A DNA stretch of 64,000 bases from a virus: the IMG/VR virus record IMGVR_UViG_3300023179_009191, positions 33,703 through 97,702 of that record; one strand, written 5' to 3'. Positions 9,779 through 28,001 of the stretch are shown here, piece after piece; position 1 is the stretch's first letter, and each line of letters begins with the position of its first letter. The position numbers and the translations under genes are program-made. Below the pieces are notes generated by a model. It saw nothing but the letters and a program-made list of their open reading frames with translations, was not told the origin of the DNA and did no database searches.

Positions 9779-10064
9779 ATGGGCCTGTCAGGTCCCGGCC
9801 ATGGGTCTGTTTTCTAGTATAGTAGGAATTCTGGTACTGTTCTACCTGCTTCTTAAACTTCTGTAACTTGTTCATCTTAGCATTTTGCTAAATGGTTGAA
9901 AATGACTGAGCAGACCTAACCATTTCTGTCTCAACACTCTCTGTAGTTTGTTCATGCCCAACAATCCAACCACTGTTCATAATCAACACCTTTACGCGTA
10001 AAGTAAAGGTCCAGAGCCCCCTCCTCCTCTCCTAATATAAGATGGTACTGCCTTCCTAAATTGT

Positions 10065-10098
10065 CCCTATATTATAAAGGAATTCTAGATTCTGTCAA
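10065..10098 (-). promoter_or_regulatory. antisense copy of the early promoter, firing into non-coding DNA
   Basis: Minus strand TTGACA-gaatctagaattcctt-TATAAT-ataggg. Confidence 0.75.
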
Positions 10099-10146
10099 TA
10101 ACAAAATAAGGCTTGTTGCAACCCCAAATTCAGATATAATATAGGT

Positions 10147-11752
10147 ATGATGAAACTAGAAAGAAAGAAACAAATTAGTGAGCTTATTGAAGAGACATTC
10201 AATAATGTTCAAAAACTAAATGAATTGTTAAAGAAATCAGATTATGAATGGGCCAATAAGAATTGGGAGTCTGAAAATGATGATGATTATGAATTGGCTG
10301 AATCCATTCTTAATGTGGGAGAGAATCTTAAAGATTGGGGCAAGCAATTTAGGGGTTGACTAAATCCAAAATTCAGCCATAATATAGGTATGATGAAAGA
10401 AGAAAACAAAAGAACGTTTGAGGTAGATATTGCAGTCACCCTCTTTATCACTCAAGAAGTAGAAGCAACAGATGAAGATGAAGCTCAAAGAATTGCAGAA
10501 GATTCCATCAAAACTGGAACTGTAATGAATGCTTGGGAGTGTAGAGATTGTGAGATTGAAAGTACAGGCTGTACTGAAGTGGAGGTAGAGTGAATACATT
10601 CCAACCTTATACACAAACAAATGTTGTAGACTTCTATAAGGAGTTGGTTAAGAGGTGGGCTGATGACCAATTGGACCAACTGCATGAATACCCTATTACT
10701 GATAGGAAGAATGCATTAGCAAGGCTTCTTGACTCCTCTCTAGATGTGTTCCGAGATGATATTACAGAAGAAATCAGAAAAAGAAATTTGTCTTTTTTGG
10801 TTGACTAAAAACTAAATTCCACCATAATAGGTGTATGATGAATAAAGAACAATACTTACAAATTGACTTGTATAATGGCAAAAGCAAATGGATCTCCAAA
10901 AAGGACTTTCTCCTTTTTACAGTAGGGGATGGTACTGAAGAGGCAGATTATAATTGGAAAGACAATTGGGAATATATTAGAAAGACTCCCACCCACACAA
11001 CCTATAAAGGGGAAGAGTGTATTTTAGTAGATTTCACCAACACAAAATTGGCTTGACCCAAACCCAAATTCAGCCATAATATAAACATGATGAAACCATT
11101 AACCGAAGAACAACTCAGTTACCGCGCACTTGACCTGCACATGACAGCTGAGAACATCCGCACCAATCTATCCAATATTGAGGCGATGTTGAGTATATCC
11201 AATCCTAATTGGAAGAACTTGTATACAGCATTACAAGAGATTGATAGCAAAACTGATCGGCTATCAGATCGGGTTCGCTGGAAATAAGAGTTGACCAAAT
11301 CCTAATTTCCCATATAATATGAGTATGATAAATGATACAGAGAGGTGGGAGAGAATGTTGAAGGTGGGTTATTCAATTGAGAACATTATTAATGGGCTCA
11401 AATATATTGGAAATGAAATTAATATTGAGACTCCTTTATGGGAAACATTCTGCAAAAGAATTGATACAATCGACAATAATGTGGATAAGCTCATTGAATT
11501 GATTGAGATCAGAAAGCAGAACAAATGAAGTTCTCTTATAAGAAGCTGGTTGATGAGCATACAAAAGCTCTGAAGTTAAGATGGGGTAGTGACTGCCTCT
11601 CCGAAGGGAGCAAGACAGCCATCAATTATGGATGGTCACAGACAGACAATTCTATCTGCTCTAAAATATATCAAGAGAGTGGGCATCAAGTTTTAGATAC
11701 TTGGTTTGATGAAGAGGATAAGATTTACAGGTCAGCCCAATCCAATTATTGA
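10147..11752 (+). CDS. seven small early hypothetical proteins (10147-10359, 10390-10593, 10590-10808, 10835-11056, 11087-11287, 11325-11528, 11525-11752)
   Basis: Five start leaderless after their own promoter; two are coupled to the upstream ORF by a 4-nt start/stop overlap. Confidence 0.7.
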
Positions 11753-11787
11753 GTTGACTAAAACAGAAGTTCTTTCATAATAATAGC

Positions 11788-11933
11788 AGTTCCTTCCGCA
11801 GTACGGGTTTGACTAGCCCAATTGATGTACTGAAGCCCCAACGCCCAGAGTCTGAGGCGAGTAGAGGTGGGTATATTGTCCTAACTACTGTCGACGTTAC
11901 TAGAGTAGGGGAGTCGGAAGGAGCTACTTTTTT
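11788..11933 (+). ncRNA. novel structured ncRNA candidate (~145 nt)
   Basis: Array promoter (TTGACT 11754, CATAAT 11776) with no ATG at +1; 11-bp closing stem 11788-11798/11915-11925, several internal helices, T6 tail. Confidence 0.75.
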
Positions 11934-11969
11934 AGTTGACCCAAACAGAAGTTCCATCATAATATAGGT

Positions 11970-12290
11970 ATGATGAATAACACAGAACTAGCCAAGGCCT
12001 TGACAGTGATGGTAACTGATCCCAAGATCAGAAGCTTCCTAGAAGATAACGATCCCATGGCTCTGAAGCAAGCCACAGAAGCTCTCAGAAACTATTTTAA
12101 CCAATATCAGACCACCCATTACACACTTTCAGGTGAAGTGCCCTGGACGCCCCCAGTGGGACCTGCTGATTACTACCCTGATTGGGATTTCTATATGAAG
12201 CCTCACCATGAATACACTACAGACATGAAGACTGAGCCTTTGAAGTGGGGTCCGTTTGGAGAAGGTGGCTCTACACCTCTTGGGAAATAA
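11970..12290 (+). CDS. hypothetical early protein
   Basis: Leaderless ATGATG. Confidence 0.7.
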   Translation: MMNNTELAKALTVMVTDPKIRSFLEDNDPMALKQATEALRNYFNQYQTTHYTLSGEVPWTPPVGPADYYPDWDFYMKPHHEYTTDMKTEPLKWGPFGEGGSTPLGK

Positions 12291-12456
12291 CTGATGCTGT
12301 ACATCATTAAGGTAGAGAAGATGTGTGAGGCTGTTATAACTGTAGAAGCAGAGAGTGAAGAACAAGCCAAAGAGAAAGCAGAATTTCACAAATATAATAT
12401 GGTTCTTGGTTGGAAATAAGAGTTGACTTCAACCCAAATTCCTGCATAATAGTAGT

Positions 12457-12624
12457 ATGATGACAATGACGATCAAAGAAGCGGTGAAGAAGTACAAGAA
12501 GCAGGACACCTGCAGGTACTTCCTCAAATGCACCAATAAGGCCACCACCACCATCCCCAACCCCATTCTAGGAGAGGTGCCTGCTTGTAAGAGCTGTGCA
12601 GACTTCTATCGGAGACAATCATGA
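12457..12624 (+). CDS. small zinc-finger-like protein (55 aa, below ORF-track cutoff)
   Basis: Leaderless ATGATG; C-x5-C...CKSC. Confidence 0.6.
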   Translation: MMTMTIKEAVKKYKKQDTCRYFLKCTNKATTTIPNPILGEVPACKSCADFYRRQS

Positions 12625-12796
12625 CATACAGAGAACTAGCCAATCGTATCAACCAGATGAATGAGTACCAACAGGACTGTCATGTAACCTATTGGCATGA
12701 TGATGAGTATTATGGTAAGCTGATTATCGACTTCGCTGATGTGAGGACTGAAGATCGTTTAGATGGATGGCATCCTTACTTAACTCAATTACCTTC

Positions 12797-12970
12797 ATGA
12801 CATACAGAGTAACTTGGTATTCCAATTGGGTGAAGCCTGAAGTTTATACTGAGCTCACCAAAGCAGAAGCAGAAGAACTAGTTAGAGAGGGTGTGGAGCG
12901 TCAGTACAGAGTAGAAGTGATAGAAGAGAACTCTGTGGAATATTGGGCCCAACCTGAGCGCTTAAAGTAG
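12797..12970 (+). CDS. hypothetical protein
   Basis: ORF within the cassette array. Confidence 0.55.
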   Translation: MTYRVTWYSNWVKPEVYTELTKAEAEELVREGVERQYRVEVIEENSVEYWAQPERLK

Positions 12971-13005
12971 TTGCCGTTAACCTAACTTTCGCATATACTA
13001 TAGGT

Positions 13006-27818: not shown

Positions 27819-28001
27819 ATGGCAGCATTATCTGCTATAGAAAATACTGCATTGTATAGAAAGTTCTTGGAAGAGAGGGAACACATTTTAAGAAACAAAT
27901 GGTTCATGTCTGAGAAAGAAGGGCATGATGTTGGTTTTGAAAGAGCTTTATTAAATTGGGTGAGCAATTTTAGAAACAAATGGTTACAAGATAACAAATA
28001 A
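27819..28001 (+). CDS. DUF4032-like small protein
   Basis: LY..FL.ERE.IL..KWF.SEK.G.DVGFE.AL..W. Confidence 0.7.
   Translation: MAALSAIENTALYRKFLEEREHILRNKWFMSEKEGHDVGFERALLNWVSNFRNKWLQDNK

What the first reader, a model, noticed from the sequence alone, without database searches (positions are those of the whole stretch)
11754..11933. A promoter cassette whose cargo is a novel multi-helix ncRNA
Seen: the array promoter (TTGACT 11754, CATAAT 11776) predicts +1 at A11788, where sibling cassettes have ATG. That base instead starts an 11-bp closing helix AGTTCCTTCCG(11788-98)/CGGAAGGAGCT(11915-25), followed by ACTTTTTT and then the next promoter. Internal helices: CAGTAC(11799-804)/GTACTG(11827-32) capped by GGGTT/AGCCC; CCCC(11836-39)/GGGG(11908-11) enclosing CGCC-CAG/CTG-GGCG (11842-59) and AGTAG(11860-64)/CTACT(11885-89). 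It is GC-rich, has no sense ORF, and does not look like a tRNA or any ribozyme I recognise. Inference: an abundant early phage RNA acting as a decoy or mimic (anti-CRISPR RNA, antitoxin, tRNA/Y-RNA mimic or protein sponge), mobilised like a gene cassette.
Basis: partly seen in the sequence, partly recalled or inferred. Interest (0 to 1): 0.85.

Follow-up and report, generated by a model that had tools for sequence, protein, structure and literature searches.

The report
Four-armed small RNA gene of phages
This stretch is a real gene for a folded, non-coding RNA of about 140 bases; it belongs to an uncatalogued family that many uncultured freshwater phages carry, usually among their tRNA genes, and its function is still unknown.

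Summary
The element is a plus-strand structured RNA gene. About 50 distinct homologues from roughly 70 freshwater phage contigs fold into the same four-way junction: 95% of pair cells are paired against 42-52% in slid controls, 26 of 40 pairs change on both sides, and all six helices covary. The apical CAG/CTG stem is not supported.

There is no match in Rfam 15, ARAGORN, GenBank phages or 185,579 cellular genomes.

New here:
- Outside this clade the RNA normally lies inside phage tRNA arrays, like T4 RNAC/RNAD. In this T4-like phage it has moved into an early promoter-terminator cassette.
- The P4 loop always carries a self-complementary 6-8-mer, kept through double substitutions. This suggests an RNA dimer.
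- The P2 and P3 loops are invariant and complementary (GACU/AGUC).
- Other variants are far more abundant in lake metagenomes than this phage.

Function is unknown and expression is unproven. The scan met this family before on other DNA (e1-5878297).

The parts
11754..11781 (+). Sigma-70-like early promoter: -35 TTGACT, 16-nt spacer, -10 CATAAT
   Evidence: In 21 of 27 distinct homologues the best -10 hexamer ends exactly 6 nt before the A of AGUUC, although the promoter sequences differ.
11788..11798 (+). P1 5' strand; A11788 is the predicted +1
   Evidence: Pairs with 11915-25. Six of 11 pairs change on both sides across 40 sequences. L099 has a wholly different P1 sequence that still pairs.
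11799..11832 (+). P2 arm: outer helix 11799-804/11827-32, inner helix 11805-09/11815-19, invariant loop UGACU 11810-14, 3' bulge 11820-26
   Evidence: All 5 modelled outer pairs and 4 of 5 inner pairs covary. The GACU of the loop is unchanged in 39 of 39 sequences.
11833..11835 (+). Junction J2/3 (AAG)
   Evidence: Conserved GAA(G/A/C) in alignments A8 and A9.
11836..11871 (+). P3 arm, the conserved core: outer helix 11836-39 with 11867 and 11869-71 (U11868 bulged), inner helix 11842-45/11856-59, internal loops 11840-41 and 11860-66, apical loop CAGAGUCUGA 11846-55
   Evidence: The outer helix covaries to CCUGC/GCAGG in 6 sequences. The first inner pair changes C-G to U-A in 13. AGUC in the loop is complementary to GACU of the P2 loop. 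Metagenome depth peaks over 11833-73.
11872..11879 (+). Junction J3/4 (UAUAUUGU)
   Evidence: A conserved (U/A)AUAU(A)UU in all clades.
11880..11911 (+). P4 arm: 11880-82 and 11885-89 pair with 11904-11 (AA 11883-84 bulged); 14-nt loop 11890-903 holds the palindrome GUCGAC (11890-95) and CUAG (11900-03)
   Evidence: All 8 modelled P4 pairs covary. Within the window's clade C-G changes to U-A or U-G. The loop is self-complementary in every variant.
11915..11925 (+). P1 3' strand
11926..11933 (+). AC plus U6 tail: intrinsic-terminator-like end using P1 as the stem
   Evidence: Sibling cassettes have no plus-strand terminator-like site in 10000-13000. U-rich tails follow P1 in all clades.
11936..11963 (+). 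Promoter of the next cassette (gene 11970-12290); not part of the RNA
   Evidence: Contigs in other lakes join 11945/46 directly to 12445, which deletes that cassette (table 5).

Best explanation
It is a stand-alone gene for a stably folded, trans-acting RNA of about 138-146 nt. The RNA belongs to an uncatalogued family of phage 'tRNA-array RNAs'. Shown: the family folds as a four-way junction (P1-P4) kept by compensatory changes. It is read from the plus strand. A host-type promoter lies at a fixed distance from its first base in 21 of 27 distinct homologues. There is one copy in each of the five phage records scanned whole. It occurs in T4-like phages and in unrelated large phages. Outside this clade it sits among tRNA genes on the same strand. 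In this phage it has been moved into an early promoter/terminator cassette in the shuffled small-gene region. Inferred: transcription starts at A11788 and ends at the U-run after P1. The invariant P2 loop (GACU) and P3 loop (AGUC) pair to lock a compact fold. The self-complementary P4 loop lets two molecules kiss into a dimer. The particle works by being bound by a protein or RNA of the host's or the phage's translation or tRNA machinery, or by a host defence, rather than by antisense pairing or by coding. Which partner it binds is unknown.
For: Fold: 40 distinct sequences have 95.0% of 1517 pair cells paired, against 42-52% when partners are slid. 26 of 40 pairs change on both sides, no shuffle out of 500 reaches this, and all six helices covary. 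About half of the homologues were found through a neighbouring protein rather than through the RNA core. Strand: 89 G-U cells would be A-C mismatches on the other strand, and the minus-strand fold is weaker. Transcription unit: 21 of 27 distinct upstream regions have their best -10 hexamer ending 6 nt before AGUUC, and U-rich tails follow P1. Not coding: no ATG frame is shared, open frames run from 18 to 90 codons, and indels are of 1, 2 and 10 nt. tRNA context: 34 of 41 distinct copies outside the window's type have a same-strand tRNA within 1.6 kb, and 10 of them within 60 nt. In four loci checked by eye, tRNA-Lys, tRNA-Pro or tRNA-Tyr starts within a few bases of the tail. Dimer loop: UCUAGA, UCAUGA, UCCGGA, GUCGAC, GUGCAC and the wobble form UCUAGG all keep self-complementarity through double changes of the central pair. 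Loop-loop contact: GACU/AGUC is complementary in 39 of 39 sequences, and the one varying neighbour (U to A) adds a fifth pair while breaking the rival local stem.
Against: No discrete transcript has been seen; the RNA-run contig spans promoter, RNA and the next gene and may be DNA or read-through. The two loop interactions rest on invariance and on three or four substitution events, not on statistics. A multi-branch closing helix is an unusual terminator, and in some relatives a tRNA follows directly, so the 3' end there would be made by processing. Types D and E have a weak P1 and folds no better than shuffles. No conserved protein partner was found nearby.
Confidence: 0.6

Rival explanations
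1. Anti-defence decoy or sponge, the first reader's idea: the early RNA titrates a host immune protein, nuclease or signalling molecule.
For: A host-type early promoter in the hyperplastic small-gene region. Shared by unrelated phages of the same lakes. An invariant core with a bulged-A hairpin that looks like a protein-binding site.
Against: No defence or counter-defence gene is linked to it. No resemblance to CRISPR repeats, ToxI-type repeats or tRNAs. The usual context is a tRNA array, not an anti-defence island.
Confidence: 0.2
2. A tRNA-linked RNA like T4 RNAC/RNAD: made and processed with the tRNAs, and acting on tRNA processing, tRNA-targeting nucleases or the ribosome.
For: Embedded in tRNA arrays on the same strand in most clades, sometimes with no spacer before the next tRNA. 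Same size class as T4 RNAC (139 nt) and RNAD (119 nt).
Against: ARAGORN and the Rfam tRNA model find nothing. There is no canonical T arm such as RNAC has. The covariance model does not match RNAC or RNAD. The window's copy is 5 kb from the nearest tRNA.
Confidence: 0.2
3. A self-cleaving or otherwise catalytic RNA.
For: A compact junction with invariant unpaired bases and two adjacent arms that carry internal loops.
Against: No Rfam family of any kind, the ribozyme families included, matches over the element at E up to 10. The loops do not fit hairpin-ribozyme loops A and B (my own knowledge of that ribozyme). There is no circular or repeat context.
Confidence: 0.05
4. A cis-acting leader or attenuator for the genes downstream.
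For: P1 plus a U-run resembles a terminator. In some relatives a tRNA follows directly.
Against: Downstream neighbours differ between clades: a gene with its own promoter here, a convergent ORF in one lineage, tRNAs in others, and the RNA lies after tRNAs in yet others. No alternative anti-terminator pairing was seen.
Confidence: 0.05
5. A small protein gene or a DNA-level site (origin, recombination site or protein-binding palindrome).
For: One plus-strand frame is open across the core in all copies. The loop palindromes could be DNA sites.
Against: Starts are only TTG or GTG at shifting positions, open frames run from 18 to 90 codons, and the minus-strand ATG frame is lost in most clades. 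G-U pairs and wobble-tolerant palindromes point to RNA.
Confidence: 0.03

Closest known systems
Phage T4 RNAC and RNAD (species 1 and 2 stable RNAs of the tRNA region)
   Same: Small phage RNAs (139 and 119 nt) of unknown role, encoded in the tRNA array on the tRNA strand (PMC3014915, PMC9697503). This family is 130-160 nt and in most clades lies in the tRNA array.
   Different: No sequence or structure match. RNAC has a canonical T arm and this family has none. This family has its own promoter, a four-way junction and a palindromic loop. The window's copy lies outside the tRNA array.
PeSL promoter-early/stem-loop cassettes of T4-type phages (Arbiol 2010, PMC2839356; Comeau 2014, PMC4122927)
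   Same: Repeated early promoters flank small units, and recombination between them adds or removes units. Here contigs from other lakes join 11945/46 to 12445, and neighbours differ between relatives.
   Different: The PeSL cassettes those papers describe carry protein genes, and the 2014 paper does not mention small or non-coding RNA. Here the cargo is an RNA and its closing helix doubles as the stem-loop.
Kissing-loop dimerisation hairpins (HIV-1 DIS; intermolecular loops of phi29 pRNA); from my own knowledge
   Same: A hairpin loop of about 9 nt holds a 6-nt palindrome flanked by purines (AAUCUAGAG, AAUCAUGAG). Variants keep the palindrome by double changes.
   Different: No homology. Dimerisation is not tested. 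The window's clade has a 14-nt loop with a different palindrome. No Rfam family matched over the element; that Rfam holds a pRNA model is my own recollection.
Orphan structured RNA motifs from metagenomes and phages (Weinberg 2010, PMC2864571, and later sets in Rfam)
   Same: Found by covariation, phage-associated, function unknown.
   Different: It matches none of the 4227 Rfam 15 models, even at E up to 10.

Membership tests
Any Rfam 15 family | Covariance-model match at the gathering score, or any hint at E up to 10 | tested here: not met
   only chance hits far below the cut-offs, none covering the element.
tRNA or tRNA-like RNA | Cloverleaf found by ARAGORN or Rfam RF00005; T loop UUCRANY closed by G-C | tested here: not met
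   The P4 loop UUCUAGA is not kept in types A, D and E (AUCUAGA, AUCAUGA, or a 14-nt loop).
T4 RNAC/RNAD-type tRNA-region RNAs | Gene lies inside the phage tRNA array on the tRNA strand | tested here: met
   For the family: 34 of 41 distinct copies outside the window's type lie within 1.6 kb of a same-strand tRNA and 10 within 60 nt. For this window it is not met: the nearest same-strand tRNA is tRNA-Met, 5.0 kb downstream.
T4 RNAC/RNAD-type tRNA-region RNAs | Homology to RNAC or RNAD | tested here: not met
   The covariance model run with filters off over the T4 tRNA region gives nothing on rnaC or rnaD.
PeSL cassette | Repeated early promoter with a preceding stem-loop, and unit gain or loss between relatives at the promoters | tested here: met
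   Promoter array. P1 plus U6 ends 2 nt before the next promoter. Joints 11945/46 to 12445.
Self-cleaving ribozymes (hairpin, hammerhead, twister, twister-sister, pistol, hatchet, HDV-like) | Match to the family models and catalytic core motifs | tested here: not met
   Cleavage itself cannot be tested here.
Kissing-loop dimerisation element | Self-complementary loop word kept by compensating changes | tested here: met
   Every loop variant holds a 6-8-nt self-complementary word. The central UA changes to AU or CG, and CG to GC.
Kissing-loop dimerisation element | The RNA forms dimers | not testable with these tools
   Needs native gels or SEC with loop mutants.
Riboswitch or cis-regulatory leader | The same downstream gene class in one transcript across homologues | tested here: not met
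   Downstream neighbours vary and may be convergent.
Bacterial Y RNA (YrlA) with Ro/Rsr | Rfam YrlA match; a TROVE-domain gene in the genome | tested here: not met
   No Rfam hit. No TROVE or RtcB in G000 or G001, both partial genomes.

The most novel reading that the evidence does not exclude
The family is a new class of self-assembling phage RNA particle. It would form a dimer or larger assembly through the palindromic P4 loop and the complementary P2 and P3 loops. Its activity would be unlike that of known RNAs, for example a sponge for a host factor or small molecule, or a catalyst. It would also be the first tractable representative of the phage tRNA-region stable RNAs, whose role has been unknown since T4 RNAC and RNAD were described.
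Probability: 0.3. Interest if true: 0.85.

Novelty: new variant of a known kind. Interest (0 to 1): 0.68.

Why it matters
Phage tRNA regions have long been known to encode extra stable RNAs, such as T4 RNAC and RNAD, whose roles are still unknown (PMC3014915, PMC9697503). This family supplies what those lack: about 50 diverse sequences, a fold fixed by covariation, invariant loops that point to specific contacts, a testable dimer signal, presence in unrelated phage lineages and high abundance in lakes. It also shows that promoter cassettes of T4-like phages can carry an RNA gene. If a partner is found, it would reveal a new RNA-based layer of phage-host interaction in freshwater bacteria.

Tried and rejected
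- GenBank phage searches with the element, its 6-kb surroundings and a type-B copy found nothing.
- The exact-core scan of 185,579 cellular genomes gave one GC-rich coding chance hit. Three GC-rich soil contigs from the metagenome scan are also chance hits.
- RNA run X9: its contig covers promoter, RNA and the next gene. Depth is per contig, so it does not show a discrete or abundant transcript.
- Pfam and PHROGs on flanking genes gave only GP88, DUF932, RuvA_C and DUF4032-like hits, with no RNA-related function.
- No TROVE or RtcB in G000 or G001.
- A K-turn reading of the P3 internal loop was rejected: there are no G-A pairs at the required places.
- T-loop and anticodon-loop (CUA) readings of UUCUAGA were rejected because other clades do not keep them.
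- Resemblance to the hairpin ribozyme (GUAUAUU, A-GUC) was rejected: the loops lie in the wrong places and there is no Rfam hit.
- The T4 rnaC and rnaD comparison was negative.
- A weak second hit at L032:11480-11654 (13.9 bits, fold z -0.79) is unconvincing.
- Genome-wide counts of the palindromes show no enrichment.

Full report
**What is in the sequence.**
One search shows TTGACT (11754), a 16-nt spacer, CATAAT (11776) and six bases before A11788. The element runs to 11925 and is followed by ACTTTTTT and the next TTGACC promoter at 11936. The promoter word TTGAC-N18-ATAAT occurs 10 times in the window against 0.35 expected, nine of them on the plus strand. In five neighbouring cassettes the ATG lies exactly 34 nt after the TTG (10356/10390, 10801/10835, 11053/11087, 11936/11970, 12423/12457). 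A11788 therefore sits where the siblings have their start. The plus strand folds to -50.4 kcal/mol (z -2.33) and the minus strand gives z -1.28. Rfam finds nothing at the gathering score, nor at E up to 10, and ARAGORN finds nothing. The window comes from a 97.7-kb IMG/VR contig of a distant T4-like phage. It carries Gp23, a Gp20 portal and ribonucleotide reductase, and its capsid protein is only 34% identical to that of any isolate.

**Relatives.**
- GenBank phages hold nothing similar.
- The flanking proteins and the core word found two IMG/VR relatives.
- One metagenome scan with the P3 hairpin word gave 30 true loci.
- A covariance model built from 11 sequences with a hand-set structure finds one copy in each of the five phage records scanned whole.
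- The GP88-like neighbour protein of one lineage pulled 34 IMG/VR loci. 25 of them hold the RNA, with core variants that the word scan had missed. This set is therefore not biased by the core.
- A degenerate core word added 12 more contigs.
- In all there are about 50 distinct sequences from about 70 contigs. 20 sequencing runs from 11 studies hold part of the 3-kb stretch around the element; those that hold much of it are freshwater, lake or pond samples.
- The exact core is absent from 185,579 cellular species genomes, apart from one chance hit.

**Structure.**
On 40 distinct sequences, 95.0% of 1517 pair cells are standard pairs, against 42-52% when partners are slid. 26 of 40 pairs change on both sides, and no shuffle out of 500 reaches this.
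- P1 has 11 bp; L099 replaces its whole sequence and it still pairs.
- The outer and inner helices of P2 covary.
- The outer helix of P3 changes from CCCC/GG-U-GGG to CCUGC/GCAGG.
- The first inner pair of P3 changes from C-G to U-A in 13 sequences.
- All eight modelled P4 pairs covary.
- 89 cells are G-U pairs, which would be mismatches on the other strand. The RNA is therefore the plus strand.

Among nine close relatives the latter breaks in four and never compensates, while CTACT/AGTAG(11904-08) is 100% paired with one compensatory change. The apical CAG/CUG stem is doubtful because its middle U is U, A or C in relatives.

**Not coding, and not a DNA site.**
The plus-strand frame over the core is open only because the core is invariant. 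Its starts are TTG or GTG at shifting positions and its open stretch runs from 18 to 90 codons. The 61-aa minus-strand ATG frame is lost in most clades. Indels are of 1, 2 and 10 nt.

**Transcription unit.**
In 21 of 27 distinct upstream regions the best sigma-70-like promoter has its -10 hexamer ending six bases before the A of AGUUC. The promoters themselves differ (TTGACT/CATAAT, TTGACA/TACTAT, TTTACA/TAGGAT and others). U-rich tails follow P1. In 10000-13000 no other plus-strand terminator-like site is called. Expression itself is unproven: the one RNA run gave a contig that spans promoter, RNA and the next gene.

**Context.**
In this phage the RNA sits in the array of shuffled early cassettes. 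Contigs from other lakes join 11945/46 to 12445 and so delete the next cassette. Neighbours also differ between relatives. This is the PeSL kind of modular shuffling (PMC2839356, PMC4122927).

Elsewhere the family lives in tRNA arrays. Of 41 distinct copies outside the window's type, 34 have a same-strand tRNA within 1.6 kb, 10 of them within 60 nt and 16 more within 350 nt. In loci L055, L072, L067 and L061, tRNA-Lys, tRNA-Pro or tRNA-Tyr starts within a few bases of the tail. The 12 distinct copies of the window's type have none within 1.6 kb. Where a tRNA is held in the locus, the nearest is tRNA-Met, 3.3-5.0 kb downstream.

The family occurs in Gp23-bearing phages (G000, G001). It also occurs in large phages without a Gp23 match (G002, 172 kb and rated complete; G003; G004). 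The positive control rang.

**Conserved loops.**
- The P2 loop GACU and the P3 loop AGUC are unchanged and complementary in 39 of 39 sequences. The only varying neighbour (U to A in type E) adds a fifth pair and breaks the rival local stem.
- The P4 loop always carries a self-complementary word: UCUAGA or UUCUAGAA, UCAUGA, UCCGGA, GUCGAC, GUGCAC, and UCUAGG with a wobble. The changes are double substitutions of the central pair.
- I read this as a kissing-loop dimer signal of the HIV-1 DIS kind. That comparison rests on my own knowledge, and it rests here on only three or four substitution events.

**Abundance.**
In three DNA runs the depth over 11833-73 is 1535, 2988 and 391, against 3-520 in the four bins on either side. 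Loose ends there show other variants of the family with different flanking sequence. Other members of the family are therefore much more abundant in those lakes than this phage.

**Comparison with known RNAs.**
T4 RNAC and RNAD share the size class, the tRNA-array location and the unknown role (PMC3014915, PMC9697503). They are not homologous, and RNAC has a true T arm that this family lacks. The scan met this family before on another genome (e1-5878297) and reached the same general verdict.

**Verdict.**
This is a real, novel structured RNA gene. The mechanism is inferred only: a compact, probably dimeric particle that is bound by an unknown partner.

Noticed in passing
window 10356-12457 (also 3412, 5059): Early promoters with the ATG exactly 34 nt after the -35 TTG, that is, at the predicted +1. 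These look like leaderless small-gene cassettes, and no plus-strand terminator-like site lies between them.
   Followed up: partly
window 10098-10071 (minus strand): A perfect 12-of-12 consensus promoter, TTGACA-16-TATAAT, pointing away from the cassette array.
   Followed up: no
window 27819-28001 (+); L013:599-808 (+): A 60-69-aa protein with a weak match to the C-terminal part of DUF4032. In seven loci of one lineage it lies convergent and directly after the RNA. In this phage its homologue (about 56% identity) is 16 kb away. It is a possible partner, or this may be plain synteny.
   Followed up: partly
L032:11480-11654 (-): A second, very weak model hit in the same contig. It has its own promoter, starts AGUUCUUUG, and holds AGCCCAACGCC...GGCGAAUAUAU. 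It may be a decayed or distant paralogue, but its fold is no better than shuffles.
   Followed up: partly
window 11945-12445: Contigs in two lake and pond runs skip about 499 bases between two cassette promoters, with a few hybrid promoter bases between the sides. This is direct evidence of cassette loss or gain.
   Followed up: partly
L084:2574-2666, L089:10700-10793, L081:8240-8332 and others: The tRNA arrays next to the RNA start with an unusually long tRNA-Ile(UAU) of 91-94 nt. It may hold an insert or an intron.
   Followed up: no
G000, whole contig: CTAG (160 against 322 expected) and the two GANTC words counted, GAGTC and GACTC (27 and 32 against 60 and 55 expected), are about twofold under-represented. 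Homologues of the GP88-like neighbour protein occur in phages of Alphaproteobacteria. Together this is a faint host hint.
   Followed up: no
L061:1109-1268: One family member has P2 enlarged into a branched arm with an extra hairpin, and P4 lengthened. The core and the loop words are kept.
   Followed up: no
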